Shown here: in pieces, positions 10,916 through 35,300 of the stretch
Layout of the letters: each line of letters begins with the position of its first letter
How positions within the stretch are numbered: position 1 is the stretch's first letter
DNA from: an uncultured Selenomonadales bacterium
GTDB lineage: Bacteria; Bacillota; Negativicutes; Selenomonadales; Selenomonadaceae
DNA: 48,458 nt
Assembly: GCA_946406415.1 (NCBI GenBank)
Contig: CAMJKR010000001.1
Coordinates: 1-48,458 of the forward strand
Direction: 5' to 3'
The notes under the pieces: model-generated
The model's input: only the letters and a program-made list of their open reading frames with translations
What the model was told of the DNA's origin: nothing
Database searches by the model: none
Position numbers and translations under genes: made by a program

Positions 10916-10943
10916 GTGACTTTTAAAAAGTATCTGATATAAT
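10916..10943 (+). promoter_or_regulatory. candidate sigma70 promoter of the serine recombinase gene
   Basis: GTGACT (10916-10921), a 16-nt spacer, then TATAAT (10938-10943). Lies about 20 nt upstream of ATG 10965. Confidence 0.35.
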
Positions 10944-10964
10944 GGTATCGGAGATGAAGCTAAT

Positions 10965-11591
10965 ATGGCTAAGGAAATTTGGGGTTATGCGCGAGTATCC
11001 ACCAAAGAGCAGAATCTTGAACGTCAACTAGTCGAACTTCGCCGATATGTTTCAAAAGAAGAAAATATCATCTCGGACAAGAAGTCCGGCAAGGATTTCG
11101 AGCGGACGGGCTATAAGTCGCTTAAGGAGAGAGTCCGCGAAGGTGATGAGCTTTTCATAAAAAGCATTTATCGGCTTGGTCGCGACAAAGACGCTATCAA
11201 GGACGAATTACGGTTCTTCAAGGAAAAAGGCGTCATTGTCCACATTTTGAATTTCCCGCAGACAATGATAGAAGTGAGCGACGAACATCAGAAGAGCGTA
11301 ATGGAACTGGTCAACAACCTGCTGATTGAAGTTTTCAGCTTCATTGCGCAGGAGGAGCGAGAGAATATTCGACGGCGACAAGCGGAAGGTATAGCCCTGT
11401 GGCGCAAAACGGGAAAAACGAAAACGGGACGACCCTACGGTCGCCCTAAAATCCAATTCCCGTCTAATTGGAAGAAAATTTACGCGCTCTGGAAAGAGAA
11501 AAAGCTCAAGTCGAAAGAGGCTTGGTACTTACTCAAAATCTCTAAGAATGTCTTCTATCGCCTTGTTAAAGAATATGAGCAAAAAATTTAA
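10965..11591 (+). CDS. small serine recombinase (resolvase/invertase family)
   Basis: N-terminal GYARVSTKEQNLERQ catalytic-serine motif. Size of 208 aa with a C-terminal HTH-like tail (KEAWYLLKISKNVFYRLVK). Confidence 0.9.
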   Translation: MAKEIWGYARVSTKEQNLERQLVELRRYVSKEENIISDKKSGKDFERTGYKSLKERVREGDELFIKSIYRLGRDKDAIKDELRFFKEKGVIVHILNFPQTMIEVSDEHQKSVMELVNNLLIEVFSFIAQEERENIRRRQAEGIALWRKTGKTKTGRPYGRPKIQFPSNWKKIYALWKEKKLKSKEAWYLLKISKNVFYRLVKEYEQKI

Positions 11592-11639
11592 GAATATATT
11601 CTCCGTTCTTAAATAATCTTCAAGAATAAACTTGGCTAT

Positions 11640-11811
11640 TCAAGTTGTCGAAAAAAATGCCCTCAAGAGTGTTGGTGTTGAGTTTGTTAGCGTCGTGCAG
11701 TTGATGCCGAGAATAGCATTGAACCGTGACAATAATTTAGTCAGTTCGTTATCTTGAGAGTGAGTTTGACTTTGTAGGCGTTTACAGCGAAATCCTTGCG
11801 TAGTTTCTCAT
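11640..11811 (-). pseudogene. decayed 5' fragment of a second Rpn-family gene
   Basis: Nucleotide similarity to 10600-10700 of the intact Rpn gene. The translation gives KLLSRFNAIL ... then, after a 1-nt deletion, KLNTNTLEGIFFDNL (compare LLSLCNAVL...ELNINTLEGIFFDKQ). In-frame stops lie upstream, and homology ends after about 55 codons. Confidence 0.55.
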
Positions 11812-11879
11812 TATATGATAAACTATTCTTTAAGGTATAATTTTTCGTTTCGTTATAAGTACATTGGGAGTGGATAGTT

Positions 11880-14102: not shown

Positions 14103-14133
14103 TACGCGCACACGCACGCACATTCGGATCTAT

Positions 14134-14160
14134 AGCGTAAAATAACCGTTTATTTACGCT
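14134..14160. terminator. bidirectional hairpin between convergent genes
   Basis: AGCGTAAAATAA-ccg-TTTATTTACGCT stem-loop between the stop at 14102 (+) and the stop at 14282 (-). It is nested inside a 12-bp outer inverted repeat, ACACGCACGCAC (14110-14121) / GTGCGTGCGTGT (14181-14192). Confidence 0.45.
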
Positions 14161-14281
14161 GAGATTCGTGTATTTATCTCGTGCGTGCGTGTATGCAAGC
14201 CCTAAACCCAAATTGAGAAAAGAACTTCCCTGCAAAACGCAGGGAATATTTTTGTGCCACAACCCCAACTGTCATTAGATA

Positions 14282-14536
14282 TTACTTCTTGAGTTCCGAA
14301 ATAGAAAATATAGAATCAATGTTGCCGATGAGCAACGACTTGTCGACGCACTCGAAGTCTATGACCTCGTAGTCGAAAGCCAAGTTGCGAGCAATGTAAT
14401 CGGCGGCTTCTTCGGCGTTCTTGCACTTCTTGTTTTTAAAACCGAAAAATTCGTGTTTGTTCTCCAGCACGAGTTGCCACGACGTGAAGATTGCGGCGGC
14501 ATTAGAGCCGTACACTGCATAAAGACCACGTTTCAT
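14282..14536 (-). CDS. small protein with an RNase H1 N-terminal (Cauli_VI/viroplasmin-like) domain
   Basis: KRGLYAVYGSNAAAIFTSWQLV...FGFKNKKCKNAEEAADYI follows the (F/L)YAV..G...I(Y/F)tSW....(F/Y)K.f.s.eEA pattern. Overlaps the upstream HTH gene by 4 nt. Confidence 0.45.
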   Translation of the reverse strand: MKRGLYAVYGSNAAAIFTSWQLVLENKHEFFGFKNKKCKNAEEAADYIARNLAFDYEVIDFECVDKSLLIGNIDSIFSISELKK

Positions 14537-14757
14537 CGAGAATCACTACCTTTCAATTTAATGTCGGAAACGGCAGGACGACTGAAATTATCTGCCGCCC
14601 ATTTTTCAAGCTCACTTCTTTTGAACAGATAAGATTTGCCAAACTTCTTGGCGGGTATAACGCCTTGCCGAGTGAGCCGCAAAACTTTCATGTAATTGCA
14701 CTCGCCATTGAAGAATTCGGCGGCGACCTGCTTGGCGTTCAAAAATTCCTGTCCCAT
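14533..14757 (-). CDS. excisionase/MerR-type helix-turn-helix DNA-binding protein
   Basis: LNAKQVAAEF...VLRLTRQGVIPAKKFGKSYLFKRSELEKWA is the classical HTH_17/Xis-like signature. Confidence 0.7.
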   Translation of the reverse strand: MGQEFLNAKQVAAEFFNGECNYMKVLRLTRQGVIPAKKFGKSYLFKRSELEKWAADNFSRPAVSDIKLKGSDSR

Positions 14758-14862
14758 TTGCTATCATTCCTCCTTTTTACTCATATGTACTGTTGCTTTT
14801 CAATTTTTGCGAAAGACTTTCCGTCACTGCTCATCATTTTTAGCCACAAAAAAAAATTCAGC

Positions 14863-15387
14863 TCAAGCTGAGTCAACACGCTCTAAGCTATGCATTTCGA
14901 TTTTCTCAAAATCATGCTTGTTGAGGATGTCGTTAATCTTGAGCTTCAAATTTCTTAGCTCGTCGCGAGGTAGTGCGAATCGCTTGCCGTTTTGCATATT
15001 GATATTGTTAAGCACCATGTGCGCGTGCAAGTTGTCTGTGTTCGTGTGAATCGCTCCGATAATCTGGTAAGCTCCGCCGTCCAGAGTAGAAATCAAATCC
15101 ATGACTTCTTGGACACAACTATAGAAATCGTCAAGCCGCTCCGACTCAAAATCGTTGAGCGAAAGTATAAACTCCATAAACTGCCTGTACAGTAAGGTTT
15201 CATTTTTTTGCGATTGGTAACACCTTTTCACGAGTATCATTTCGTCGTAAGGATTAGTTGCCGAGAGGAAATTTGTAAAGATCAGCTCAGGCGAAGTGGA
15301 TGCCGGATTTAGAATGTAGTTCAATTTCGCCTTTAAGCTATGATTCTCGCCGACGGGAACGATTTTAAAAACAGCCATTTGAATCAC
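14863..15387 (-). CDS. relaxase/mobilisation nuclease domain protein (short, 174 aa)
   Basis: KLNYILNP near the N-terminus and the histidine triad HTNTDNLHAHMVLNNI (MobA/VirD2-type relaxase). Overlaps the mobC-like gene by 4 nt. Much shorter than typical relaxases. Confidence 0.7.
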   Translation of the reverse strand: MIQMAVFKIVPVGENHSLKAKLNYILNPASTSPELIFTNFLSATNPYDEMILVKRCYQSQKNETLLYRQFMEFILSLNDFESERLDDFYSCVQEVMDLISTLDGGAYQIIGAIHTNTDNLHAHMVLNNINMQNGKRFALPRDELRNLKLKINDILNKHDFEKIEMHSLERVDSA

Positions 15388-15818
15388 CTTAGTCCTTCAT
15401 AAATATTGTGTAGTCGCGCTTCTACTTCAAGTTCGTGATCCTTTTGCTGATCAAGCAAGTGAAGTATAAGCGTATTCATCTTCGCTTTTTGCAGAGAGAA
15501 GGTTTCCTTGAACTCTGGCGAAGTGGAGACTGGGTGTGCCCTTAACAGCTCCGAGTTTTGCTCTATAAGCTTGCTTAGGGTTTCTAATTTTTGCGCGAGG
15601 TTGTTATTATAGTTGCGCATGTCGTTGTGACAAGATTGAAGTTCTTTAACAATCTCGCCGCCGTTGTAAATCCGATTGATCGTTACCTTTGCAGCCGCTG
15701 TGCGGATAAAATCGCTGACACTGAGATTGGCTTCCTTAGCTTTGTCTTGAATCATCTTCCTATCTTCTTCTGTGAGTCTGGCATTGATTTGACACAGCTT
15801 GCCTTGCTTTTCAGCCAT
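15384..15818 (-). CDS. mobC: MobC-family relaxosome accessory protein (ribbon-helix-helix)
   Basis: INARLTEEDRKMIQDKAKEANLSVSDFIRTAA motif. Lies immediately upstream of the relaxase gene. Confidence 0.7.
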   Translation of the reverse strand: MAEKQGKLCQINARLTEEDRKMIQDKAKEANLSVSDFIRTAAAKVTINRIYNGGEIVKELQSCHNDMRNYNNNLAQKLETLSKLIEQNSELLRAHPVSTSPEFKETFSLQKAKMNTLILHLLDQQKDHELEVEARLHNIYEGLR

Positions 15819-16180: not shown

Positions 16181-16564
16181 ATGGAAAAGATTGACGATTG
16201 CTTAGCGGAAATTCAATATATCGGGCTTAGGATTGCTTATTTCCGAAAATTGCGCAACTTGACTCAAGCCGACCTTGCCAACAAAGTTTCTATCAACAAA
16301 AATTATCTTTCACACATAGAGAGCGGCTCTGCCAATAAAGTCATGTCCTTGCCATTGCTTATAAGAATCTCTAAGGCACTCGATGTTGAGTTAGCATTGC
16401 TGGTTGACTTGAGTGATTTAGATAATTCTAAAAATGAAGTTCGCGAACAAATTACCGAGCTTAGGACTATGTTTGAAGAGATGAAACAATTTAACGCTGA
16501 ACTTAACGACATGATGGCTCAGCTGAACGATACGGATTACGACATTCCGGACGATTGCAAGTAA
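16181..16564 (+). CDS. XRE-family HTH transcriptional regulator
   Basis: IGLRIAYFRKLRNLTQADLANKVSINKNYLSHIESG, with an acidic coiled C-terminus. GAGGTGAAGG RBS. Confidence 0.85.
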   Translation: MEKIDDCLAEIQYIGLRIAYFRKLRNLTQADLANKVSINKNYLSHIESGSANKVMSLPLLIRISKALDVELALLVDLSDLDNSKNEVREQITELRTMFEEMKQFNAELNDMMAQLNDTDYDIPDDCK

Positions 16565-16568
16565 GTGT

Positions 16569-16796
16569 TCATTTCGGACTGGGATTATCGGTCAATCCCA
16601 AAATATAGTCCGTGCTGACGTTGTAAAGTTTGGCAAGAGCAATCAGATTGTCGACAGGCAAGTTGCGTTTTCCCGATTCATAGTAAGCGTAAAGGGATTG
16701 GGAGCAGTGAAGATAATCGGCGACTTTCTGTTGAGTCAGGTCGGCATCTTCTCTTAGGTCACGAATACGTGGGAATTTTCTACATACTTCGTTCAT
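16569..16796 (-). CDS. XRE-family HTH transcriptional regulator, divergent from the large operon
   Basis: IRDLREDADLTQQKVADYLHCSQSLYAYYESGKRNLPVDNLIALAKLYNVSTDYILGLTD. Start set to the internal ATG at 16796, because the longer ORF (to 16856) would cover the operon promoter and operator. Confidence 0.8.
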   Translation of the reverse strand: MNEVCRKFPRIRDLREDADLTQQKVADYLHCSQSLYAYYESGKRNLPVDNLIALAKLYNVSTDYILGLTDNPSPK

Positions 16797-16832
16797 AACA
16801 AGAAAAAGTATATAGAGGGAAAGTGGGCGGGA

Positions 16833-16861
16833 TTGATTTTTATGACTATAAGTCATATAAT
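16833..16861 (+). promoter_or_regulatory. sigma70-like promoter of the 16.9-36.5 kb operon
   Basis: TTGATT (16833-16838), a 17-nt spacer, then TATAAT (16856-16861). Lies 37 nt upstream of GTG 16899, which has a GGAGG RBS. Confidence 0.5.
16841..16857. promoter_or_regulatory. palindromic operator candidate overlapping the promoter spacer and -10
   Basis: TATGACT-ata-AGTCATA is a perfect 7-bp inverted repeat between the -35 and -10, adjacent to the divergent XRE gene. Confidence 0.45.
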
Positions 16862-16898: not shown

Positions 16899-17258
16899 GT
16901 GAAAAAATATTTGACGATCGACGCGAAGTTTAAATGCAACGCCTCCCCAAAAGTAGATTTTACTTGTTTGGAAAGCGTTAATAAAAAGGTCAAATACAAC
17001 GGCAAAATTGTTTTGACTGACAGCGTGAGGTTAATCGGTAGAGGGAAGTGCGAGCCGCTGACTTTAGCGGCGCAAGGAACTCCTATACCTTGTTGTTGTT
17101 CCTTGCAAGGTTGGCTTTCAACTGACAATGTAGCCAAAATTTGTGGAAAGTTTCTTCTGATTGAGAGTTCAAGAAATTTCTGCACGGCAACTCCCGTACC
17201 GGTTCCAATCACCGTTAAACAAAGTGGAACGAACGGAAAATTTTTTCATGGCGATTAA
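16899..17258 (+). CDS. DUF4280 domain protein (PAAR-like spike tip)
   Basis: LTIDAKFKCNASP...VKYNGKIVLTDS...GKCEPL...IPCCCSLQGW...AKICGKFLLIESSRNFC...ITVKQSG matches the DUF4280 pattern (conserved Cys, kingk..lt.dS, it..qsG) as I remember it. Encoded first in an operon that contains a VgrG-like gene. Confidence 0.7.
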   Translation: MKKYLTIDAKFKCNASPKVDFTCLESVNKKVKYNGKIVLTDSVRLIGRGKCEPLTLAAQGTPIPCCCSLQGWLSTDNVAKICGKFLLIESSRNFCTATPVPVPITVKQSGTNGKFFHGD

Positions 17259-17341
17259 AAAATGAGCTACATTAAAAAAACGGAAAGGACGTGAAAGACG
17301 TGACGACGAGTTTAAATTGACAAGATCGTTACGTCGATTTT

Positions 17342-25805: not shown

Positions 25806-27502
25806 TTCTTGTGGTTTTGAACTTTCAAATTGAGATAAGCGACGAAATTATAGAATGTTTCGGTTATTCTCTTTACAAACGCAATCAAAAAAAATCTCTG
25901 GAAGCAAAAGAATTATTTGAAAAACTTTTTTTGGATCTCCAATCCGAACTTCAAAAAGAATCTCAAATCAACATTCAACATTTGAGCAATTTGGACAATC
26001 GTTTAAGACTTGTAGAACACTCTGCCGCCGACAGCGAAGATGTAGAACGGGCAATTAACAAACTCAATAACAGGATAACGAGGATTGAATTCAACGTGGA
26101 CAATTACAAACGTCAGCAGGACGCCATTGCCGCGAATATGAATCAAATAGAGACTACTGTCAATCAACTTTATACGACACTCAACGGCAAAATAGAAAAG
26201 CTTGAGAAAAAGTTTAAGATCGAATTAAACAATGAAGTTGAAAGAGCAGTTGATGCCGCAGTCAAAAAAATTCTCGCTACCGATTTAAGCGGGGTAATTC
26301 AAGCGGCTGTCGATAATGCCGTCAAAACTACTACTCCTGCGCCCGTCATCAATGAAAAAATTCAAGCGGAAGTTGCCAAAGCTGTTGGGAATATTCAGCC
26401 GCCTAATGAATTCAACGTGGACAATTACAAACGTCAGCAAGACGCCATTGCCGCGAATATGAATCAAATAGAGACTACTGTTAATCAACTTTATACGACA
26501 CTCAACGGCAAAATAGAAAAGCTTGAGAAAAAGTTTAAGATCGAATTAAACAATGAAGTTGAAAGAGCAGTTGATGCCGCAGTCAAAAAAATTCTCGCTA
26601 CCGATTTAAGCGGGGTAATTCAAGCGGCTGTCGATAATGCCGTCAAAACTACTACTCCTGCGCCCGTCATCAATGAAAAAATTCAAGCGGAAGTTGCCAA
26701 AGCCATTAAAGAAGAACGCCAAAAAACTCAAGCAGGCAATGCCATTTATCCTTCAAGTTACCTTATCTTTGAACAGCAACGTAATAATATCAACGAGCTT
26801 AAAGAATTAATCAACACTCAACAAAAAGTAATCGAAGATTTAAAAGCGCGCCTCTCTGCCGTTGAGGGAAAAGCCGCAACTGCGACGATCGAGCTGGCAA
26901 CGGAAGAATATACTCCCCTCAAAATTCGCGACGAAAGCTCTTGGCTAAAATATAAAAGCCGCTTGAAAGATATTGGCAAGCTGAAACTATTCGCAGACAA
27001 AAATCCTGTCGAGTTCAAAATTTTTGCCTCAAAATTAAAAAGAATAGAAAATGCTATCGACAAAATAAATCCTAATGAATTCAACGAATACACGACGGAA
27101 ACTATAACAGATAAAATTGTTGAGGTAGTAAAAGAGTTCATCGACGTTTTAGAAACTTGCAGACGTAAAATTAAAAATCCCGCAAAGAATTCAGTCGCCG
27201 CGCAGGAGCTTTACAATTTGATTGAAGAATATCTTTCAGGGCTTGGCATTCGTTCGATGAATTTCAAAGTCGGCGATAATTTTGAGAAGTGGGCGGATCT
27301 CTCAATGAGTGAAGTACCGATAATTGAAAATACTTTTGACAACCGCAAACACAACATCTTGAAAGAAATTCTTGTTCAGCCGCATTATATAGAATTCATT
27401 AACGAACACGACAAAAAAGTACACCGCGTTTTTGGCGGGCGATGTGTTGCTTATGCTTATAAAAAAGGTGATGAGTATGGAAGAGTTTTTAGTAGGAATT
27501 GA
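25802..27502 (+). CDS. long coiled-coil protein with a GrpE-like C-terminal domain, paralogue B; contains an internal 321-bp duplication
   Basis: The C-terminal ~190 aa are homologous to the 249-aa protein (FNEYTTETI...AQELYNLIEEY..GLGIRSMNFKVGDNFEKWADLSMSE...HRVFGGRCVAY). The N-terminal ~370 aa are heptad-rich. The start (GTG 25802 overlapping the previous stop) is uncertain. Confidence 0.6.
   Translation: MILVVLNFQIEISDEIIECFGYSLYKRNQKKSLEAKELFEKLFLDLQSELQKESQINIQHLSNLDNRLRLVEHSAADSEDVERAINKLNNRITRIEFNVDNYKRQQDAIAANMNQIETTVNQLYTTLNGKIEKLEKKFKIELNNEVERAVDAAVKKILATDLSGVIQAAVDNAVKTTTPAPVINEKIQAEVAKAVGNIQPPNEFNVDNYKRQQDAIAANMNQIETTVNQLYTTLNGKIEKLEKKFKIELNNEVERAVDAAVKKILATDLSGVIQAAVDNAVKTTTPAPVINEKIQAEVAKAIKEERQKTQAGNAIYPSSYLIFEQQRNNINELKELINTQQKVIEDLKARLSAVEGKAATATIELATEEYTPLKIRDESSWLKYKSRLKDIGKLKLFADKNPVEFKIFASKLKRIENAIDKINPNEFNEYTTETITDKIVEVVKEFIDVLETCRRKIKNPAKNSVAAQELYNLIEEYLSGLGIRSMNFKVGDNFEKWADLSMSEVPIIENTFDNRKHNILKEILVQPHYIEFINEHDKKVHRVFGGRCVAYAYKKGDEYGRVFSRN
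26087..26703 (+). repeat. near-perfect tandem duplication, period 321 bp (about 296 bp conserved per copy), in-frame
   Basis: Copy 1 is 26087-26382 and copy 2 is 26408-26703. I see only two substitutions (cagcagg/cagcaag; actgtcaat/actgttaat). Both copies encode an identical EFNVDNYKRQQDAIAANMNQIETTVNQLYTTLNGKIEKLEKKFKIELNNEVERAVDAAVKKILATDLSGVIQAAVDNAVKTTTPAPVINEKIQAEVAKA. Confidence 0.95.
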
Positions 27503-29075
27503 CTTTGGTGCCTGCAATCTGAAAGCGGCGGCGTTTGTTGACGGAAAAAAATTTCGTCCTATCCAGCTTAACACGCAAGAGGGCAGTACAAAACACGCGC
27601 CGAATATCATTTACTACAGGAAGAATAAAAAAGACGGCACTATTAATAAAATCATAGGGCAAGCCGCCTTTGTTAGTAGCCTCACGGATATAGGTACAGA
27701 AAAAAATTTTGTCGCGAATATCAAACGCAAGATGGAAATAGTCGATTGGTCACAGCGAATAGCGAATCTCGACTGCGATGTTACTGCCTTTGAAATCATA
27801 CGCGACATTTTCGAGTGTATTCAACGTTTCTTCAGCAATAAAAAATCTCAAAGCGTTCGTGCGGTCTTGACGGTACCGGTTTGTTTTTCGGAAGTTCAAC
27901 GCAATATGATTCGTCGCGCCGCTGAGGAGTCGGGGCTAGTTGTAGATACTCTGATTAGCGAACCTTTTGCCGCAATTTTTTCACTAAGAGATTTGCCGAG
28001 CTACAAAGATAAACTCATCATGATTTTTGATTTTGGCGGCTCCACACTCGATGTAAGTATCTCCAAAATTGAATGTTCTTCGGAGGGCGAATTGAAAATT
28101 ATTGAGCTTGCGGCGGCGGGAATTCGTTTCGGCGGGCTTGACATTGACAGGGATATTTATGAAAAAATTCTTTTGCGCGATTTCCAAACGTTATTTGACA
28201 ATAGCTCAATAAAGGATGCAATAAATCGCGAAGACTTTTACTTGAATTTTACTCGTGAGCTTAAGGAATTACTTTTCAAAACTAGCGAAGATGCTGAAGC
28301 ACAAGAATTATCAGAAGGCACTATCACAGGTCTTGAGGATGTCATTTTGAAATATAAAGATGTCGAAAAACTTTTTTCAGAGAGCAATTACAAGAAAAAA
28401 ATTTTTGATATGTTCGATGCGATTTTTGAGGATTTGGAGGACAACCCTAGTTATTCTTATCAGAAGGAAGATATAGCTAGAATTTTTCCAATCGGCGGAA
28501 CGTGCAAAATTCCGTTCTTCATTGACATTCTTGAGGAATATTTCGGAACGGAAACTTTCAATAAGGAAGATTTTGACTTCGACGATAACGAATTTTTGAT
28601 GAAGGGATTAACCGACCGTTATCTTGCAGTAGCGAGCGGCGCGGCGCATTATCTCAATCGCAAGCAAGACGGAAGTCTGCCTAAAAGTTCCAATGTCATT
28701 CCGTATTGTATCGGTTACGGCAAGGACGGGAAATTTTCTCGTTGCCTCAATAGAAATATGCCGTTCGGTTATGAGACGCGCTCTATGCTCTTGCCATTGC
28801 CTTTCCTAAAAAAAATTTCTTGGACGATTCAGTTTTTCCAATGTTTCAGCAATCAAACGGTGTCTAAATTGGACAGTGAAGAGGGCGCAGCGGTTTATAT
28901 AGGTAAAATCAAATTAGATGAATCGCTTTATGAAAAAAAAGAATCGCCGCTGTTCAAAATACGGATAATGCGAGACGGACGTTTGCGTCTTGAATTCTTT
29001 GACAACAAAACTTTTCCAGACGGCTCGAAAGAACTCGTCACGATGGAAGAACATTTTTTGGAGATAGGAGGTTAA
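27477..29075 (+). CDS. Hsp70-family ATPase 2 (divergent phosphate-binding motifs)
   Basis: VGIDFGACNLKAAAF (TT replaced by AC). LTVPVCFSEVQRNMIRRAAEESG...LISEPFAAIF. IFDFGGSTLDVSI. IFPIGGTCKIPFFIDIL. Start at ATG 27477 (or 27471) after AAAGGTG; it overlaps the end of the previous gene. Confidence 0.75.
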   Translation: MEEFLVGIDFGACNLKAAAFVDGKKFRPIQLNTQEGSTKHAPNIIYYRKNKKDGTINKIIGQAAFVSSLTDIGTEKNFVANIKRKMEIVDWSQRIANLDCDVTAFEIIRDIFECIQRFFSNKKSQSVRAVLTVPVCFSEVQRNMIRRAAEESGLVVDTLISEPFAAIFSLRDLPSYKDKLIMIFDFGGSTLDVSISKIECSSEGELKIIELAAAGIRFGGLDIDRDIYEKILLRDFQTLFDNSSIKDAINREDFYLNFTRELKELLFKTSEDAEAQELSEGTITGLEDVILKYKDVEKLFSESNYKKKIFDMFDAIFEDLEDNPSYSYQKEDIARIFPIGGTCKIPFFIDILEEYFGTETFNKEDFDFDDNEFLMKGLTDRYLAVASGAAHYLNRKQDGSLPKSSNVIPYCIGYGKDGKFSRCLNRNMPFGYETRSMLLPLPFLKKISWTIQFFQCFSNQTVSKLDSEEGAAVYIGKIKLDESLYEKKESPLFKIRIMRDGRLRLEFFDNKTFPDGSKELVTMEEHFLEIGG

Positions 29076-29078
29076 GCA

Positions 29079-29267
29079 ATGGAGGACGAACGCAAGACCC
29101 AATTTGAGCAACTGTATGCTTTCGGCGTTGAGTGGCTTGGCAAAATCGAAAATGACATTCGCGCTAAGCATGAAAAAATCGAAAACTTGGAAGCAGACAA
29201 TGCCAATTACGAGAGACTTCAGTCGACTGTACGGCAGGCAATGATGTCTTTTGATGAAGGAAAGTAA
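29079..29267 (+). CDS. small coiled-coil protein (62 aa)
   Basis: Strong RBS (TAGGAGG) 3 nt after the Hsp70-2 stop. Heptad-like sequence. N-terminal similarity to the next gene (GVEWLGKIEND.. versus GGEWYKELVAL..). Confidence 0.5.
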   Translation: MEDERKTQFEQLYAFGVEWLGKIENDIRAKHEKIENLEADNANYERLQSTVRQAMMSFDEGK

Positions 29268-29366
29268 TCGCATGGAAAACTTGACAAACGTGAGGACAAA
29301 CTCAACGAACACGCAAGCCGACTTAGCGGCAAGCAATGATGTATTTTAAGATAGGAGGTACAGCGT

Positions 29367-30296
29367 ATGGAAAATGAGTTACAAAATCTGAACCACATGC
29401 GCGACATTTTGGATCACATGCATAAAATCGGCGGCGAGTGGTACAAAGAATTGGTCGCGCTCAAAAAAGAAAATGATGATTTGAAAAAGGAAAACACGCG
29501 GCTCGACGGGCTTGAAAAACTCATCACGGAGCGAATCAATAGCCTTCACGCAAATATTGACGATAAAAGTCACCTCGTTTTGAATAAAATCTCCGAAGTC
29601 CACACGAAGGATATTCCCGACGTTAAAAATGAAATCGTCAACACCAGAAATTCTATCTCGCCGTTGACTGAGGCGAAAAGATTTTACGATAAAAAACTCG
29701 ACACTCTCAATGAAAAGCAAGACGAATTAGAAAATCGCGAAAAAGGCATTAGTCAGGGCGAAAGCGACCTTAGCGATAAGCAAAAAGAGTTATCAATTCG
29801 TCAAGGACAGCTCGACGGTTGGCAACGTCAACTTGAGGAGCAAAAATGCAATCAAGACGATTATCAAAGACAGCTCAACGGTTGGCAACATCAACTTGAA
29901 GACCAAAAGCGCGCTCAAGACGATTATCAAGGACGCCTCGACGGTTGGCAACGTCAACTTGAGGAGCAAAAGCGCGCTCAAGACGATTATCAAAGGCAGC
30001 TCGACGAGTGGCAAAGAAATTTGGAACTGCGAAAAAATGAGCTTGACGAACGCGAAAACTCTTTAAACGAACGCGAGGCAGAGCTTGATTCTTCAAATTA
30101 TGGCGCAGAAGATCATCACGAAAACTTTGAGCATGAATGCTCCGGAGATTATTTTCAAAACGAAGAACGTAACTATCCTCGTGATAATCAGGAATGTGAA
30201 CAGCCGGATCAGGAAAATCTGTCGACAAATCCAAACGACAATTCCCCTGCGCCTTCACAAAGTAACGGACAAGACCCCGATTTTAAAGACCTGTAA
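29367..30296 (+). CDS. coiled-coil protein with W/Q-rich 21-aa tandem repeats and an acidic low-complexity tail
   Basis: TAGGAGG RBS. Repeats QLDGWQRQLEEQK(C/R)(N/A)QDDYQR. No enzymatic motif seen. Confidence 0.7.
   Translation: MENELQNLNHMRDILDHMHKIGGEWYKELVALKKENDDLKKENTRLDGLEKLITERINSLHANIDDKSHLVLNKISEVHTKDIPDVKNEIVNTRNSISPLTEAKRFYDKKLDTLNEKQDELENREKGISQGESDLSDKQKELSIRQGQLDGWQRQLEEQKCNQDDYQRQLNGWQHQLEDQKRAQDDYQGRLDGWQRQLEEQKRAQDDYQRQLDEWQRNLELRKNELDERENSLNEREAELDSSNYGAEDHHENFEHECSGDYFQNEERNYPRDNQECEQPDQENLSTNPNDNSPAPSQSNGQDPDFKDL
29808..30029 (+). repeat. 63-bp in-frame tandem repeat, about 3.5 copies
   Basis: Units start at 29808, 29871, 29934 and 29997 (the last is partial). They encode QLDGWQRQLEEQKCNQDDYQR / QLNGWQHQLEDQKRAQDDYQG / RLDGWQRQLEEQKRAQDDYQR / QLDEWQRNLE. 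Confidence 0.9.
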
Positions 30297-30311
30297 AAAG
30301 GAGAAAAGTAA

Positions 30312-32375
30312 ATGGCAGAATCTTACAAGTATGTTGTAGGCATTGATTTGGGTACGACTAATACTCTCGCTTGTTTTTTCAGGAACGGGCGCAAGGAATT
30401 GGTAAAATTTGCTGGCGAACCGTTGTTGCCGTCGGTGCTCTACGTCGATAAAAACGGCAAAGCCTATATCGGAAACAAAGCCTTGCACAGAGGCGCAACT
30501 GACCCGCGCAATATGGTTCGTTCCTCGAAAAAATATATTGGCGACTACGAGAAAAATCAAGTTTGGAATCTGAACGGCAAAAACTTCACGCCGACCGACG
30601 TTGCAACAGAAATTTTAAAAGAAGTCCGTGCAAATTTCGTTCGGACGGTTGATTGCGACCCGTCGGAAAAAATCGGCGCAGTTATAACCGTTCCCGCATA
30701 TTTCAACAACAACCAACGCACCGAAACGCGCAAGGCAGGTAAGGCGGCAGGGTTTGAAGTCATGTGGATTCTTGAGGAACCTGTAGCAGCCGCTATTGAA
30801 GTAATTCATGAAGAGCACTTTGATAAGAAAGTTTTCGTCGTGGACATCGGCGGCGGCACCTTTGATTTGAGCGTCTTGGAGGCTGACGAACAACAACACA
30901 TTTACAAAGAAATCGATAAAGACGGTGACCCGCAACTCGGCGGCGACGACTTTGACGAGGCTCTTGTCAACAGATTAATCGAAATCATCAAGGACGATTC
31001 GGGTAAAGATTTATCTTCGCTAAACTCTTCCGGACTTGAGGAATCGGATTATTTCAAGAATAGAAATATTATCCTCAAGGCGGCGCAAAAGGCTAAAAAG
31101 GAATTGAGCGGCGACAGCGAAGAGAGCGACATTGAAATTGAAGATATTTTCGACGATTACGACCTCGAAATGACTTTGACCCGCGAAGAATTTAACTCAA
31201 TCTGCTCCGAAATTTTTGATAAGATATTCGCCAGAACAAAAAGATTCGTTGATAAAAGCAAGGAATTCAAAATCGGCGACATCGGCAGAATAATTTTGGC
31301 GGGCGGCACGTGCTATATTCCGTTAATCGGCGAGACGATTGAAAAAATGTTCGGAATTGAGCCTGACAGCGGTCTTGAAAAATCTATGCTCGTCGCTTAT
31401 GGTGCGGCGCACTTCGCGAGATGGAAAAATGGCGGCGTCGAAGGCGGTGTTTCTTTCACACTGCAGGGAATTATTCCTCACTCTCTCGGCGTGGAGATTG
31501 TCAACCAAAAACGAGAGCACATCTTTGAAAAAATCTTGACTAAGGGCTTGAAATATCCTTGCCGTAACTCAAAAGATTTCACGACGACTTTCGACAACCA
31601 AACGCAAGTTGATATAAACGTCTACGAGGCGGGCAACGACGCCGAAGCGCAAATCGACATCAATTATCATAAACTTTACGGCACTCTGACTTTGGACGGA
31701 ATCGCGCCCAAGCCTAAAGGTGTTCCGACGATTAAAGTTACCTTTGATTACGACGATAACCAGAATTTAACCGTCACGGCTCTTGATACGCAAACCGGCG
31801 ACTCTGAAACCAAAGCCATAAAGTCCGGACAAAAAATTGAGTTGCAAAAAGAATCGCCCGTTGATTTAATGTTGCTCCTTGACGTTTCGGGCAGTATAAG
31901 TGTGAATGATCTGTCCCAAGCTAAAAACGCAAGTTTGCGGCTCGTGAACGAGATGATTGACCTTTCGGTGCACAGAATGGGAATAATTTCCTTTGGAAGT
32001 TATGCGAATTTGCTCTGCCACCTCACACATGATAACAATCAGCTGAAGCGAGTTATAAATAGCATTCTTTACACTGGAGGCGGTACAGATATGGTTGACG
32101 CTCTACAGAAGTCCGAAGACGCCTTGCGCAACAGTGTAAATGAAAAAGTTATTCTGATGATGACAGACGGTTATCCCAACAGTAACAGCAGGACTTTGGA
32201 TTTTGCAAATAGACTTACTCGTCAAGGCTATAAGATATACGCAATAGGCGTCGGTAGCATAGATTTTAATTTTCTTTATCAAATGGCGGGTAGGAAAAAT
32301 ACAATGGTTATCGACAGCATGAGCAAGTTGGCGGACGCTTTCAAATCCGTCATGAATTCGATTATGTTGCGCTGA
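30312..32375 (+). CDS. Hsp70-family ATPase 3 fused to a C-terminal von Willebrand factor A (vWA) domain
   Basis: VGIDLGTTNT. ITVPAYFNNNQRTETRKAGKAAG...LEEPVAAAI. VVDIGGGTFDLSV. IILAGGTCYIPLIGETI. SBD-beta ...PTIKVTFDYDDNQNLTVTALD. Then the vWA MIDAS motifs LLLDVSGSIS, GGGTDMVDAL and ILMMTDGYPN (about 31860-32372). Confidence 0.85.
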   Translation: MAESYKYVVGIDLGTTNTLACFFRNGRKELVKFAGEPLLPSVLYVDKNGKAYIGNKALHRGATDPRNMVRSSKKYIGDYEKNQVWNLNGKNFTPTDVATEILKEVRANFVRTVDCDPSEKIGAVITVPAYFNNNQRTETRKAGKAAGFEVMWILEEPVAAAIEVIHEEHFDKKVFVVDIGGGTFDLSVLEADEQQHIYKEIDKDGDPQLGGDDFDEALVNRLIEIIKDDSGKDLSSLNSSGLEESDYFKNRNIILKAAQKAKKELSGDSEESDIEIEDIFDDYDLEMTLTREEFNSICSEIFDKIFARTKRFVDKSKEFKIGDIGRIILAGGTCYIPLIGETIEKMFGIEPDSGLEKSMLVAYGAAHFARWKNGGVEGGVSFTLQGIIPHSLGVEIVNQKREHIFEKILTKGLKYPCRNSKDFTTTFDNQTQVDINVYEAGNDAEAQIDINYHKLYGTLTLDGIAPKPKGVPTIKVTFDYDDNQNLTVTALDTQTGDSETKAIKSGQKIELQKESPVDLMLLLDVSGSISVNDLSQAKNASLRLVNEMIDLSVHRMGIISFGSYANLLCHLTHDNNQLKRVINSILYTGGGTDMVDALQKSEDALRNSVNEKVILMMTDGYPNSNSRTLDFANRLTRQGYKIYAIGVGSIDFNFLYQMAGRKNTMVIDSMSKLADAFKSVMNSIMLR

Positions 32376-32397
32376 GAGTAAGAAAGGAGCAAATAAT

Positions 32398-35300
32398 ATG
32401 AGTGAACCAAATGAGGAATTTTTGACAATGTTAAAAGATTCTTCGATTGAAGACGAACGGAAAGAAATTCTGCCATCATTTCGCGGCGGCAAGAAACGTC
32501 TGGAAATTGAAGTAATCAACAAAATTTTAAATGACGAAGGCATAGACGCCGAAGAGCCGAAAACGGATTTTGATTTCTGGTGCGTGTTGAAGAATCTTAA
32601 GAAACGCAATGATGTCCTGTACATTTTGAAGGATTGTCTTAAAGAAGCTGAAATTTCTTGCAACGACGCGATATTGAAAACGCTCAAAAAAGACCAGTTC
32701 ATTGAGTTGCTGTTTAACGTGTTCGATATTTATCCCAAAGCATATGACGAAAGTTCTGCGACGGCGACAACTTCAGCTACCGAGACAGAAAGCGGCTCGG
32801 AAATTTCTGAAGACACGGAAAAAATTCGCAAAGCTACAGAAAAACTTTTCCCGAACGGCATTAACGGCAAACAGGAAATAGAATACGCCGAAATAGCCGA
32901 CATGTTGCCCGAAAAGGTTTCTAGCGTCGACGACCTTAAAAAGCTTATGCTTACAACCAAAGCCGGCAATAAAATCAAGGAAATGTTCAAAGCCTGTTGC
33001 CGAATGAAAGAAGTTGACATGGAATTTGGCAAGCTCGGCGGGCTTGAGAGAAAAATTTATGTGCCGATATTCTTCGACGTGTTTGAAATAAAATTTCCGC
33101 AGAGTACCAAGATTGATTCGATACCAGTTGACGAAAATACCGCAAGCGCATCGTCTAAATCTTCAAGCGAATTGCAAAACATCAGTCTTGCTTTGACCTT
33201 CGAGCAAGTTCAAGAAATTTATAAAGGCGGAGAAAAAATTTCTGTCGCCGATCTTGAAGGCTACGACATTTCCGACAACGTAATTGTTTATCGCGACATG
33301 CCTGTCACTTTATCGGACGGCTTTTGGATAAAAGTTCCAGACAACGTTAGTATTTCTCATCTCTGCGCGGCGCTCATAAATTCGCAAACCGAAGAAGTAG
33401 TTGCCGTCGGTTCGGTTGAAAAATATTTTACGAACAGCGGAGAAACAAGACCACATTTGATTTTCGCCGCCGATAAAATTAAGTTCGAGCAATTTGAACG
33501 TCAGCGCGAGTTCAATGTTATGCTTATACCGGTCGAACAGGAAGATTTTCTTATCAATCCGAGCGGCGATTATCGCGGCAAGCTTTATATCTTCGAGTGT
33601 GATTTGAATTTGGACACGTTGAAGAAGACCGACAAACCCCTTTGCATAGATTTTGGCACGAGCAATACCACAGCGGGAACTTACGGGCTGGGCAATAACA
33701 TCGGCAACAACGATATTCAACTGGTGAAATTCCGCGACGTAACTTCCGAAATGCCCAAGATAAGTGATCTGTTGCCAACTGTCGTTTACGTTGATTCCTT
33801 CAAAGACGATAAGCCAATTTTTAAATTCGGTTACGAGGCGCATAAAGAAATTATTGATTCGGATTACAGCACACGCGCTTCCGTCTTTTACGAAATCAAA
33901 CGTTGGATTAATTCAATCAACAAAACCGAAAAACTTTTTGACAAAAAAGGAAACACCATTCCCAACGAAATTTCGCACAAGGAAATTTTGAAGGCTTATC
34001 TGAATTACATCATAGAAGTTGCTCAGCAACAATTCAAAGTTAAATTCCGTAATCTGCACTTCACCGCTCCGGTTAAGCTCAAGAAACAATTTTTAAAAAT
34101 TATGTCCGAGATTTTCCCCGAACCCGAATATTTTATCGAGCGCGAACGCAGTTTGGACGAAGGCATCGCGATTGTTTACCATTACATAGCCGAACAACTG
34201 CGCGAAAAAAAGAACGACGAGCCTGTAAACGGAAATATTTTAATTCTGGATTGCGGCGGCGGCACTACTGATTTAGCAAGTTGCAAATATTCGATTGAGG
34301 ATTCAAACGTCGGTCCTGTTCTGAAAATCGAGACAGGTTTTGAAAACGGTGAATCCAATTTCGGCGGCAATAACATTACTTATTTGATTTTGCAGATGCT
34401 CAAGATTAAAATCGCCGCCAACCTGCAACGACAAGGGAATTTGACAATGCAGGAGCTAATAGTCGAAGACGAAAATACTATTCTCTGTGATATTGATGAT
34501 AACTACGACAATAAAAATAAAATTTATGAGAAATTCCTCGCAGCTTACAAGCAAGCAGAAAATATTATTCCGACAAAATTTAGCGAATGTTCCGGACGCA
34601 ACGAGAAGTTGATGATTAAACGGAATTATTATTACCTTTGGCAAATGGCGGAGGCAATAAAGATTGAGTTTTACCGTTCCAATTTAGTCAACGTAGATTT
34701 TGACAAAGAGCAAGACAAAAAAATTTACGTCGACGACGCGGCACAATATTATCTTTACGTCAAGACCGACGGTAAAACTTTAATACGTCACGACCGACCG
34801 ATGGATAAAGTCGAAATCACGATAAAAGAAATCAACCGCATAATTTGTCCCGAAATCTACGCCTTGCTCAATACGCTCCTTCGTCAGTACACGGGCAAAA
34901 ATTTTGAGACAATAGAGGTGCTTCAAAAATTCCGCTATCGTCTTTCGGGTCAATCTTGCAAAATCGCGCTGTTCAATGACCTGTTAAAAGAATTTATTCC
35001 CGGTGTACTCATTCGCAATCGGACGCAAAAAAATTTGAACTCGGACAACAAAACCGACAGCAGCGTTTTAAAAAAGTTTTGCATAGAGGGAAGTATTGAA
35101 TACATGCGCGACAAAGCTCGCGGTGAACTTAAGCCCATACTCAATACGAGAAACATGAAAAATATTTACGCCGTATATATCGAAGATGGCGGCAAACTCT
35201 CCGAATGCGCTCTTGACTACGACAGCACGGTTACTATCATCAAACGCCCTAGCAATATGCGCGAAGCAATCTTCATTGTTAAGGACAGCAACGGCAAAAT

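What the first reader, a model, noticed from the sequence alone, without database searches (positions are those of the whole stretch)
30312..32375. Hsp70 with a vWA domain in place of the helical lid
- All four Hsp70 nucleotide-binding motifs and an SBD-beta segment are present.
- After about residue 515 the protein continues into a complete vWA domain.
  - Its MIDAS residues are intact: DVSGS, GGGTD, MTDG.
- vWA domains are usually partnered with MoxR-type AAA+ chaperones in bacterial conflict and assembly systems.
- A covalent Hsp70-vWA fusion suggests a chaperone that docks on a metal-dependent protein ligand, possibly another operon product.
Basis: partly seen in the sequence, partly recalled or inferred. 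Interest (0 to 1): 0.7.

Follow-up and report, generated by a model that had tools for sequence, protein, structure and literature searches.

The report
Hsp70-vWA chaperone in spike-gene operon
This is a real Hsp70 chaperone whose helical lid is replaced by a metal-dependent docking (vWA) domain, and it always sits in a conserved 14-gene operon of rumen and gut Firmicutes that combines several Hsp70-like ATPases with a minimal phage-tail "tube-spike-tip" set, which suggests an undescribed toxin-delivery or conflict machine.

Summary
ORF 30312-32375 (+, 687 aa) scores as Hsp70 NBD+SBD-beta (res 8-510, 2.5e-88). It stops where the DnaK lid would begin and continues into a vWA domain (res 518-668, 7.5e-22). 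The MIDAS residues (D524/S526/S528, T592, D619) are kept in at least 95% of 116 homologues.

The fusion is a family, not a one-off. It comprises about 45 full-length 50%-identity clusters, in Selenomonadaceae, Megasphaera, a Clostridia MAG and Ureibacillus. No curated family or paper describes it.

The gene is always gene 12 of a 14-gene operon (16899-36484):
- a DUF4280 (PAAR-like) protein
- a 749-aa protein with no known relative
- a protein with a predicted Hcp/tail-tube fold
- a VgrG-like spike
- two proteins of unknown function
- three lidless Hsp70s with coiled-coil partners
- a 1080-aa SrfB-like actin-fold ATPase
- a 295-aa protein

No sheath, baseplate, AAA+ ATPase or membrane protein is detectable. 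In a related locus the PAAR-like protein carries an AHH nuclease and is followed by an Imm11 immunity gene.

The best reading is that the protein is a MIDAS-anchored Hsp70 serving an uncharacterised Hcp-VgrG-PAAR toxin-delivery or conflict apparatus. The architecture and the gene linkage are shown. The docking partner and the mechanism are inferred.

The parts
16833..16861 (+). promoter-like site (TTGATT-17-TATAAT, 10 of 12 matches) upstream of the first gene of the operon
   Evidence: This is a consensus match only. Two Xre-type HTH genes lie just upstream (16181-16564 +, 16569-16856 -).
16899..17258 (+). g00: 119-aa PAAR-like (DUF4280-type) tip protein with no toxin extension
   Evidence: Pfam itself is silent on this protein. 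BLASTP gives 2e-10 against the Pfam-verified DUF4280 protein of the Ureibacillus locus L024. It is 42% identical (2.6e-18) to the N-terminus of the 595-aa DUF4280-AHH protein of L025/L027. Four cysteines are conserved.
17342..19591 (+). g01: 749-aa conserved protein with no recognisable relative
   Evidence: 31 homologues at 26-93% identity, none with a Pfam domain. The AF2 model has pLDDT 75.7 and pTM 0.73. Foldseek found no match with E<0.1 in the PDB or BFVD. There was no phage hit.
19600..20058 (+). g02: 152-aa protein with a predicted Hcp / contractile-injection-system tube fold
   Evidence: The AF2 model has pLDDT 78.8 and pTM 0.75. 49 of the 50 best Foldseek PDB hits are themselves tube, tube-initiator or Hcp chains, or chains from eCIS, pyocin, diffocin or phage tail and baseplate assemblies; the 50th is a defence complex (DSR2) solved with a phage tail tube protein. 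Best E is 1.9e-4, probability 1.00, TM about 0.5. Sequence-only searches do not detect this.
20087..21529 (+). g03: 480-aa VgrG/gp5-like spike protein
   Evidence: Pfam Phage_base_V 1.6e-11. NCBIfam vgr_GE and TssI give sub-threshold hits. PDB hits: T6SS VgrG 1.3e-8, Anabaena CIS spike 2e-4, Pvc8. Orthologues also hit Phage_GPD.
21542..22798 (+). g04: 418-aa conserved protein of unknown function
   Evidence: Conserved next to VgrG in all related loci. No Pfam, PHROG or PDB match.
22799..23461 (+). g05: 220-aa conserved protein of unknown function
   Evidence: Conserved synteny. No family match.
23458..25044 (+). g06: 528-aa lidless Hsp70 (NBD + SBD-beta), with catalytic residues intact
   Evidence: Pfam HSP70 6.1e-60, profile positions 1-486 of 599. 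Catalytic residues are conserved.
25056..25805 (+). g07: 249-aa protein, paralogue of the C-terminal third of g08; a possible Hsp70 co-factor
   Evidence: Alignment A3. The only hint is weak BAG1-domain hits at E about 0.04-0.06, which are not significant.
25802..27502 (+). g08: 566-aa coiled-coil protein ending in the g07-like domain; contains a 321-bp tandem duplication (26086-26703)
   Evidence: The start codon is uncertain.
27432..29075 (+). g09: Hsp70-like ATPase (about 510-547 aa) with a degenerate phosphate-1 loop (GACN) and a divergent C-terminus
   Evidence: Pfam HSP70 5.4e-19. T11A and T12C substitutions. Orthologues are 506-551 aa, so the true start is probably an ATG at about 27471-27477.
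29367..30296 (+). g10: 309-aa coiled-coil protein with 21-aa repeats and an acidic tail; poorly conserved, and replaced by two small coiled-coil proteins in other subtypes
30312..32375 (+). g11: THE FINDING. A 687-aa lidless Hsp70 fused to a MIDAS-intact vWA domain. NBD+SBD-beta is nt 30333-31841 and vWA is nt 31863-32315. MIDAS: DxSxS at 31881-31895, T592 at 32085-32087, D619 at 32166-32168.
32398..35640 (+). g12: 1080-aa protein with a central actin/Hsp70-fold ATPase (CIDFGTSNTTAG at 416-427, DCGGGTTD at 618-625, LSGQSC at 849-854); remotely SrfB-like; always directly downstream of the Hsp70-vWA gene
   Evidence: The motifs are invariant in 11 orthologues. SrfB hits are weak in 7 of 11 members. 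The L027 orthologue passes the SrfB gathering score, 27.7 against 27.1. PADLOC PDC-M61B gives 2e-7.
35597..36484 (+). g13: protein of about 265-295 aa and unknown function; the last gene of the operon and always paired with g12
   Evidence: 12 orthologues. No family or PDB match. The start codon is uncertain.
36530..36551 (+). terminator-like hairpin followed by a T-run, just after g13
   Evidence: This is a consensus match only. Conservation with related loci stops at g13.

Best explanation
SHOWN:
- g11 is a catalytically competent-looking Hsp70 (NBD, linker, SBD-beta with the hydrophobic pocket kept).
- It has no SBD-alpha lid. A classical MIDAS-bearing vWA domain starts at exactly the point where the lid would begin.
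- It is one of three lidless Hsp70s, plus a fourth SrfB-like actin-fold ATPase, in a conserved operon of about 19.6 kb and 14 genes.
- That operon also encodes a PAAR-like (DUF4280) tip, a predicted Hcp-fold tube protein and a VgrG-like spike.
- The operon has no detectable sheath, baseplate wedge, AAA+ ATPase or membrane component.
- The cassette moves as a block between different genomic contexts in Negativicutes, a Clostridia MAG and a Bacillus-relative.
- In one relative the PAAR-like protein is extended by an AHH nuclease and followed by an Imm11 immunity gene.

INFERRED:
- The cassette is an uncharacterised delivery or conflict apparatus built around an Hcp-VgrG-PAAR vehicle.
- Hsp70-type ATPases supply the ATP-dependent assembly, loading or recycling work that ClpV, a sheath or MoxR-type ATPases do in known systems.
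- Within it, the vWA domain of g11 uses its MIDAS metal to bind an acidic side chain of a fixed partner. The most likely partners are the always-adjacent g12/g13 pair or the tube and spike proteins. This tethers the Hsp70 to the machine.
- The SBD-beta cleft then engages an extended segment of a client, under control of the NBD ATP cycle and perhaps of the g07/g08 co-factors.
- Related lidless Hsp70s without vWA occur without g12, g13 or spike genes nearby. This fits the vWA being the coupling element.
For: - Domain architecture, boundaries and motif conservation.
- Family size and spread: 118 of the 120 best clusters have both domains. About 45 full-length 50%-identity representatives are among the best 150 hits to the SBD-beta+vWA part. 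The only named species in that search is Ureibacillus xyleni.
- Conserved synteny at 21-50% protein identity.
- A VgrG-like gene is present in all 11 loci (counting the window itself) whose upstream flank reaches far enough. g12 and g13 follow the Hsp70-vWA gene in all loci that have a downstream flank.
- The flanking genes differ between loci.
- g02 tube fold.
- g03 VgrG.
- g00 PAAR-like.
- PAAR-like protein with AHH nuclease, followed by Imm11.
- No hydrophobic segment in g01-g13 on a crude Kyte-Doolittle scan (g00 was not scanned).
- No AAA+, sheath or baseplate family in Pfam, NCBIfam, PHROGs or PADLOC.
- Lidless Hsp70s without vWA, solo or in threes, sit next to trmD without g12, g13 or VgrG.
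- Literature: PMC8651086 reports Phage_GPD VgrG genes next to DUF4280 PAAR genes in Firmicutes without T6SS or eCIS genes. [quoted passage not shown]
Against: - No partner of the vWA domain was identified, and no complex modelling was possible.
- No J-domain protein and no recognisable GrpE is in the operon. The g07/g08 co-factor idea rests on non-significant BAG hits.
- No membrane, lysis or secretion component is encoded, so an export route is unexplained.
- The tube call for g02 rests on a predicted structure from a shallow alignment (16 sequences, TM about 0.5). Sequence profiles do not confirm it.
- g00 does not itself reach any Pfam threshold.
- The toxin and immunity pair was seen in a related locus that lacks the Hsp70 triad (L027), not in the window.
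- g01, g04, g05 and g13 remain blank, so a sheath or baseplate too diverged to recognise cannot be excluded.
Confidence: 0.5

Rival explanations
1. The cassette is an intracellular anti-phage or abortive-infection system. The tail-like proteins (tube, spike, tip) would serve as sensors, decoys or scaffolds for incoming or assembling phage parts. The Hsp70-vWA would be an NTP-dependent threshold switch, like the MoxR-vWA or GTPase-Hsp70 conflict systems of Kaur et al. 2020. It would release or activate an effector inside the cell.
For: - All products look cytoplasmic, with no hydrophobic segment in g01-g13.
- The cassette is mobile. In the window it lies on a mobile element among restriction-modification genes. 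In Megasphaera it lies next to WYL and AAA-ATPase/PDDEXK genes.
- Xre-type regulators lie upstream.
- Kinase domains are linked to the cassette in L024 and L027.
- All four ATPases give weak hits to the PADLOC candidate PDC-M61B.
- Hsp70 and vWA components are documented in predicted conflict systems (PMC7159879; PMC11090510).
Against: - A PAAR-like protein with an AHH nuclease and an adjacent Imm11 immunity gene is the signature of exported polymorphic toxins, not of suicide effectors (PMC3482391).
- No known defence family is matched above noise.
- The Hcp-VgrG-PAAR trio is otherwise known only from injection devices.
Confidence: 0.25
2. The cassette is a remnant or module of a prophage, tailocin or eCIS, and the Hsp70s are morphogenetic chaperones for the tail. 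The missing sheath and baseplate genes would lie elsewhere, or would be g01, g04, g05 and g13 diverged beyond recognition.
For: - Tube, spike and tip genes are of phage-tail origin.
- Four conserved proteins have no assignable fold or family.
- g10 and g08 give weak tape-measure-like coiled-coil hits.
Against: - There are no capsid, terminase, sheath, gp25/gp6-type baseplate or lysis genes in or next to the operon in any of the loci examined.
- The g01 model has no match to any sheath or baseplate structure, and g01 has no match in 50,697 phage records.
- The boundaries of the cassette are the same in unrelated genomic contexts.
Confidence: 0.12
3. g11 is a specialised proteostasis chaperone. 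The vWA domain would simply act as a substitute lid or oligomerisation module, unrelated in function to its neighbours.
For: - The catalytic and substrate-pocket residues are canonical.
- Lidless Hsp70 relatives exist next to the housekeeping gene trmD.
Against: - Synteny with g09, g12, g13 and the spike genes is strict at 42-50% identity across families and classes.
- There is no housekeeping context.
- MIDAS conservation argues for ligand binding rather than a passive lid.
Confidence: 0.05

Closest known systems
DnaK/HscA-type Hsp70 chaperones (Pfam PF00012)
   Same: The NBD has all catalytic residues. A linker and an SBD-beta are present, with the F426, V436 and I438 pocket equivalents. Identity to DnaK over res 8-509 is about 34%.
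   Different: There is no SBD-alpha lid and no C-terminal tail; a vWA domain takes their place. The VLLL interdomain linker is altered to FTLQ. No J-protein or GrpE is encoded nearby. The scores are far below the NCBIfam DnaK and HscA cut-offs (300 against 648-822 bits). The gene is operonic with tail-like genes.
MoxR AAA+ / vWA chaperone pairs and the vWA-MoxR-VMAP ternary conflict systems (Kaur et al. 2020, PMC7159879)
   Same: An ATP-driven chaperone is coupled to a MIDAS-bearing vWA adaptor inside a mobile, multi-gene conflict-type locus.
   Different: The ATPase is an Hsp70, not an AAA+. It is covalently fused to the vWA domain. No MoxR or VMAP gene is present.
T6SS cargo vehicle Hcp-VgrG-PAAR, including DUF4280/IglG-type PAAR-like tips
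   Same: A predicted tube-fold protein, a VgrG-like spike and a PAAR-like tip are encoded together. A toxin-extended PAAR-like protein with an immunity gene occurs in a related locus.
   Different: No TssB/C sheath, TssE/F/G/K baseplate, TssJ/L/M membrane complex, TssA or ClpV is detectable. The hosts are Firmicutes. Three to four Hsp70-superfamily ATPases are present instead.
Orphan Phage_GPD VgrG + PAAR_H2 (DUF4280) pairs of Firmicutes noted by Zhang et al. 2021 (PMC8651086)
   Same: The gene pair, the phylum and the absence of T6SS or eCIS genes all match. This is probably the same or a related cassette.
   Different: That paper does not mention Hsp70, vWA, the tube-like gene or the SrfB-like ATPase. 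No paper in the searched library holds both DUF4280 and Hsp70.
Hsp70-like NBD/SBD modules of CoCoNuT/McrBC systems (CnuD; PMC11090510) and the GTPase-tubulin-Hsp70 systems (PMC7159879)
   Same: Non-housekeeping Hsp70-like ATPases are recruited into mobile conflict loci, together with coiled-coil proteins and in places with vWA genes.
   Different: There is no McrB GTPase, HEPN or TerY-P triad here. The CnuD motifs are degenerate, whereas those of g11 and g06 are intact.
SrfB of the srfABC operon (Pfam PF07520)
   Same: g12 orthologues match the central ATPase region of SrfB.
   Different: The match is marginal: it passes the curated cut-off only in one orthologue, and the window protein scores 12.9 bits against a cut-off of 27.1. 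No SrfA or SrfC was recognised. The SrfABC mechanism is itself unknown (PMC6950479).

Membership tests
Hsp70 (PF00012) | Actin-fold NBD with phosphate-1, phosphate-2 and adenosine motifs and the catalytic D8, K70, E171, D194, T199 and D201 equivalents | tested here: met
   HSP70 2.5e-88. D12, T15, T16, K73, E155, D177, T182 and D184 are present and are conserved in the family.
Hsp70 (PF00012) | SBD-beta sandwich with a hydrophobic peptide pocket | tested here: met
   The alignment to DnaK runs through residue ~506-508. The F426, V436 and I438 equivalents are kept; the arch residues are changed, M404 to V and A429 to T.
Hsp70 (PF00012) | SBD-alpha helical lid | tested here: not met
   The profile match stops at position 503 of 599. 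vWA starts at res 518, so there is no room for a lid.
Hsp70 (PF00012) | Dedicated J-domain and nucleotide-exchange partners | tested here: inconclusive
   No DnaJ or GrpE hit was found in any operon product. g07 and g08 give only non-significant BAG hits. Host DnaJ or GrpE could serve.
vWA / MIDAS domain (PF00092) | Profile match to the full vWA fold | tested here: met
   VWA 7.5e-22 over profile positions 1-163 of 174; VWA_2 1.1e-16. PDB I-domains down to 4e-10.
vWA / MIDAS domain (PF00092) | Complete MIDAS motif DxSxS...T...D | tested here: met
   D524, S526, S528, T592 and D619 are each conserved in at least 95% of 116 homologues and are invariant in alignments A1 and A2.
vWA / MIDAS domain (PF00092) | Metal-dependent binding of an acidic residue of a ligand | not testable with these tools
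   This needs biochemistry or complex modelling.
MoxR-vWA chaperone systems | A MoxR-type AAA+ ATPase encoded with the vWA protein | tested here: not met
   No AAA+ family was found in g00-g13 with Pfam, NCBIfam or PADLOC.
Type VI secretion system | Hcp tube, VgrG spike and PAAR tip | tested here: met
   g02 has the tube fold by prediction only. g03 matches Phage_base_V and VgrG. g00 is homologous to DUF4280 proteins.
Type VI secretion system | TssB/C sheath, TssE/F/G/K baseplate, TssJ/L/M membrane complex and ClpV | tested here: not met
   No family hits. The g01 model matches no sheath or baseplate structure. No hydrophobic segments in g01-g13. g04, g05 and g13 were not modelled, so extreme divergence is not excluded.
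Extracellular contractile injection system / tailocin | Sheath, gp25/gp6/gp7-type baseplate, tape measure, AAA+ ATPase and tail fibres | tested here: not met
   The same searches as for T6SS apply. PHROGs gives nothing except weak coiled-coil tape-measure noise for g10.
Polymorphic toxin system | N-terminal trafficking domain + C-terminal toxin + adjacent immunity gene | tested here: inconclusive
   The feature is met in the related locus L027: DUF4280 5.5e-6, AHH 3e-4 and Imm11 5.2e-10. In the window itself the PAAR-like protein is 119 aa with no toxin domain, and no immunity gene was recognised.
SrfB (PF07520), for g12 | Score above the Pfam gathering threshold | tested here: inconclusive
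   The window protein scores 12.9 bits against a cut-off of 27.1. 7 of 11 orthologues give weak hits. The L027 orthologue scores 27.7 bits.

The most novel reading that the evidence does not exclude
The operon encodes a new class of phage-tail-derived delivery machine in Firmicutes, working in both diderm Negativicutes and monoderm Bacilli. An Hcp-VgrG-PAAR projectile would be assembled, loaded and/or driven by a set of Hsp70-superfamily ATPases rather than by a contractile sheath and ClpV. The Hsp70-vWA would be the MIDAS-anchored motor or adaptor, in the way mtHsp70 is tethered at the mitochondrial import channel. This would be the 'unknown phage-like translocation system' suspected for Gram-positive bacteria (PMC8651086).
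Probability: 0.25. Interest if true: 0.9.

Novelty: new variant of a known kind. Interest (0 to 1): 0.72.

Why it matters
- Hsp70s are among the best-studied proteins. A widespread natural family in which the lid is swapped for a ligand-binding MIDAS domain is a ready-made test of what the lid does. It also shows how an Hsp70 can be hard-wired to a specific machine.
- The operon gives a concrete and complete gene list for the orphan VgrG and DUF4280 pairs of Firmicutes, which so far have no associated apparatus.
- It suggests that the apparatus is built from Hsp70-type ATPases, which would be a different energetic solution from every known contractile injection system.
- The operon is present in cultivable Megasphaera elsdenii and in abundant rumen Selenomonadaceae. 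Both the competition hypothesis and the phage-defence hypothesis are therefore directly testable, and they bear on rumen and gut ecology.

Tried and rejected
- g01 as a sheath or baseplate protein: the AF2 model is of usable quality, but Foldseek found nothing in the PDB or BFVD. The PDB profile search was empty, and there was no phage hit.
- Sequence-level proof that g02 is Hcp failed: Pfam and PHROGs are silent, and the PDB profile search gives only spurious marginal HA2 hits.
- g07/g08 as GrpE-like or BAG-like exchange factors: only non-significant BAG1 and thermosome hits. I do not claim this.
- PDB profile searches for g12, g13 and g04 returned nothing meaningful.
- A "compact" Hsp70-vWA cassette without spike genes (L016-L018) looked real at first, but it was an artefact of short contigs. 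The same subtype on a longer contig (L028) has the full operon.
- An apparent Hsp70-vWA on the Methylorubrum megaplasmid (tblastn 90% coverage) is a canonical DnaK whose lid aligned spuriously. No plasmid in PLSDB carries the fusion, and the operon has no megablast hit there.
- No known defence system was matched: PADLOC gives only weak generic Hsp70 similarity to the candidate PDC-M61B.
- Literature searches for Hsp70 with vWA, VgrG or DUF4280, and for VgrG in Negativicutes, found no description of this system.
- The first attempt to scan genomes with a 21-sequence alignment failed because it had no conserved stretch. A 6-sequence alignment worked.
Full report
**1. The observation**

- Pfam gives HSP70 over residues 8-510 (E 2.5e-88). 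That match covers profile positions 1-503 of 599, so the lid part of the profile is left unmatched.
- Pfam gives VWA over residues 518-668 (E 7.5e-22), with VWA_2 and weaker vWA-clan hits on the same stretch.
- Against solved structures, residues 8-509 align with DnaK, BiP and mortalin NBD+SBD-beta. The alignment ends at about E. coli DnaK residue 506-508, which is where lid helix A begins.
The hydrophobic pocket residues F426, V436 and I438 are also conserved. The arch residues and the VLLL linker are altered.
In an alignment of 116 full-length homologues each is identical in at least 95% of sequences.
- The isolated vWA domain is closest to classical ligand-binding I-domains: TRAP, collagen VI, anthrax toxin receptor and BatB.

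**2. Is it a one-off?**

No.

- 118 of the 120 best 90%-identity clusters (42-93% identity, full coverage) carry both domains. The named ones are Selenomonadaceae MAGs and Megasphaera elsdenii; the latter cluster stands for 75 sequences on 42 contigs.
- An exhaustive HMMER scan with the SBD-beta+vWA part found 71 representatives at E<=1e-30. Among the best 150 there are about 45 full-length proteins of 640-745 aa matched at their C-terminal ends, plus fragments. The remainder are giant multi-vWA proteins.
- The only named one is Ureibacillus xyleni, a member of the Bacillales.
- NCBIfam has no model that this protein passes. Sources call it only "Hsp70 family protein".
- PLSDB plasmids hold only canonical DnaKs. 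One apparent long hit turned out to be a DnaK.

**3. The neighbourhood**

The gene is embedded in a run of same-strand, tightly packed genes from 16899 to 36484.

- A promoter-like site lies at 16833-16861 and a terminator-like hairpin at 36530-36551.
- Comparison with 20-odd related loci shows that g01-g13 are conserved as a block at only 21-50% protein identity. These loci come from Selenomonadaceae, Quinella, a Clostridia MAG, Megasphaera and Ureibacillus. Conservation stops after g13.
- The flanks differ between loci:
  - In the window the flank is a mobile element with primase, resolvase, relaxase, ERF and restriction-modification genes.
  - In L004 the flank is rsmH/ftsL.
  - In Megasphaera the flank is EcsC, WYL and PDDEXK genes.
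  - In L028 the flank is housekeeping genes.
- The operon is therefore a mobile cassette.

Its content is as follows.

- **g00** (16899-17258) is a 119-aa protein homologous to DUF4280 PAAR-like proteins. The evidence is BLASTP 2e-10 to a Pfam-verified one and 42% identity to another. It does not itself reach a Pfam threshold.
- **g01** is a 749-aa protein with no relative by sequence or predicted fold.
- **g02** is a 152-aa protein.
  - Its AF2 model has pLDDT 78.8.
  - 49 of the 50 best Foldseek hits are Hcp, tube or tube-initiator chains, or other chains from eCIS, pyocin, diffocin or phage tail and baseplate assemblies; the 50th is a DSR2 defence complex solved with a phage tail tube protein.
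  - The probability is 1.00 and the best E is 1.9e-4.
- **g03** is a VgrG/gp5-like spike.
- **g04** and **g05** are of unknown function.
- **g06** is a second lidless Hsp70 with intact catalytic residues.
- **g07** and **g08** are paralogous proteins. g08 has a long coiled coil.
- **g09** is a third Hsp70-like ATPase with a degenerate phosphate-1 loop.
- **g10** is a repeat-rich coiled coil.
- **g11** is the Hsp70-vWA.
- **g12** is a 1080-aa protein with invariant actin/Hsp70-fold ATPase motifs and a marginal relationship to SrfB.
- **g13** is of unknown function.

A crude hydropathy scan finds no membrane segment in g01-g13; g00 was not scanned. No sheath, baseplate, AAA+ or known defence family is detected in any library.

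**4. Informative variants**

- In L027 the spike module (PAAR-like, g01, g02, VgrG, g04, g05) is joined directly to g12 and g13 without the Hsp70 triad. There the PAAR-like protein is a 595-aa DUF4280 + AHH-nuclease protein followed by an Imm11 immunity gene. This is the classic layout of an exported polymorphic toxin (PMC3482391).
- In L019-L023 close relatives of g11 (41-50% identity) end right after SBD-beta, without a vWA domain. They occur alone or as an Hsp70 / coiled-coil / Hsp70 / Hsp70 set next to trmD, with no g12, g13 or VgrG nearby.
- vWA-bearing versions are therefore found with the g12/g13 and spike genes, and vWA-less versions are found without them. This is the main, still circumstantial, argument that the vWA domain couples the Hsp70 to that machinery.
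- A seemingly compact vWA-bearing variant (L016-L018) was an artefact of short contigs.

**5. Mechanism**

The following points are shown:
- g11 is a lidless but otherwise canonical Hsp70 covalently joined to a MIDAS-intact vWA domain.
- It is in obligate synteny with a predicted tube-fold protein, a VgrG-like spike and a PAAR-like tip, and with three more Hsp70-superfamily ATPases.
- The cassette is mobile.
- Related cassettes carry a toxin and immunity pair.

The following points are inferred:
- The cassette builds an Hcp-VgrG-PAAR vehicle.
- Its assembly, cargo loading or recycling is powered by Hsp70-type ATPases.
- g11 is tethered by MIDAS coordination of an acidic residue on a fixed partner. 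g12/g13 are the prime candidates because they are always adjacent.
- The SBD-beta cleft of g11 works on an extended client segment.

I put about 0.5 on this overall reading. The architecture and linkage parts are near-certain, and the docking and motor parts are speculative.

The main rival (0.25) is an intracellular anti-phage system of the NTPase-chaperone type described by Kaur et al. 2020 (PMC7159879). It is favoured by the fully cytoplasmic look and the defence-island-like contexts. The PAAR-like toxin and immunity layout counts against it.

A prophage or tailocin remnant (0.12) and a stand-alone proteostasis chaperone (0.05) fit the data poorly.

**6. Comparison with what is known**

- It works like an Hsp70 and like a vWA adaptor. 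It is a member of the Hsp70 superfamily that fails the lid criterion.
- It is not a MoxR-vWA system, because there is no AAA+ ATPase.
- The cassette shares the tube, spike and tip with T6SS and eCIS, but it fails every other defining feature that could be tested.
- Zhang et al. 2021 (PMC8651086) noted that Firmicutes have Phage_GPD VgrG genes next to DUF4280 PAAR genes without T6SS or eCIS genes. [quoted passage not shown] This operon is very likely that system or a relative of it.
- The Hsp70, vWA, tube-like and SrfB-like components appear not to have been described. No paper in the searched library holds both DUF4280 and Hsp70, or Hsp70, VgrG and von Willebrand together.

**7. Verdict**

- The finding is real, recurrent and not explained by existing annotation or by the literature available here.
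- The protein is a new variant of a known kind: an Hsp70 with a vWA domain in place of the lid.
- The cassette around it may be a new kind of tail-derived machine (probability about 0.25).
- Interest is 0.72.

The limits of this analysis are as follows.
- The tube assignment rests on one predicted structure from a shallow alignment.
- Four conserved proteins remain blank.
- No interaction or export evidence exists.
- The DnaK residue mapping used a sequence recalled from memory.

Noticed in passing
window 26086-26703 (inside g08): A 321-bp tandem duplication, 1.9 copies at 99% identity. It duplicates a coiled-coil segment of about 107 aa in frame and looks like a very recent length change of the coiled coil.
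   Followed up: partly
window 29801-30014 (inside g10): A 63-bp repeat in 3.4 copies, which encodes 21-aa DDYQRQLDGWQRQLEEQKRAQ units. g10 is the least conserved operon gene and is replaced by two small coiled-coil proteins in other subtypes.
   Followed up: partly
window 25056-25805 and 26900-27502: g07 and the C-terminal third of g08 are paralogues (58% identity). The family gives weak, non-significant profile hits to the BAG1 domain, an Hsp70 nucleotide-exchange factor (E about 0.04-0.06).
   Followed up: partly
window 16181-16564 (+) and 16569-16856 (-): Two back-to-back Xre-type HTH genes lie immediately upstream of the operon. A related locus (L027) also has an HTH gene upstream, so these are possible dedicated regulators.
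   Followed up: no
window 36604-38539: Just downstream of the operon there is an MmeI target-recognition-domain fragment (36604-37089, -) and an IS4/5-family DDE transposase (37898-38539, -), set among broken-looking ORFs. This looks like a degraded restriction or ATPase gene region.
   Followed up: no
window 577-15818 and 41563-45877: The window has a mobile-element backbone: primase-VapE (577-3507), ResIII helicase (4919-7780), N6_N4 methylase (7785-9893), PD-(D/E)XK protein (9909-10760), resolvase (10965-11591), D5_N-like protein (11880-14102), MobA relaxase (14863-15387), DUF932 (41563-42684) and ERF recombinase (45299-45877). There is no megablast match in PLSDB for the operon.
   Followed up: partly
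L019-L023 (Selenomonadales MAGs): Lidless Hsp70s without vWA, 41-50% identical to g11, sit directly upstream of trmD. They occur either alone or as an Hsp70 / coiled-coil / Hsp70 / Hsp70 set. This is a chromosomal lidless Hsp70 module of unknown role.
   Followed up: partly
L024 3379-5556 and L027 20594-22138: Protein-kinase links. In Ureibacillus the first Hsp70 of the operon has an N-terminal kinase-like region (Pkinase 7.7e-6). In L027 a Pkinase gene follows the cassette.
   Followed up: no
L024 16515-19367 and L027 4623-7622: A further family of proteins of about 950-1000 aa has a central Hsp70-like NBD. It is distinct from g12 and has no Pfam match. It accompanies the cassette in Ureibacillus and in the compact L027 variant.
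   Followed up: no
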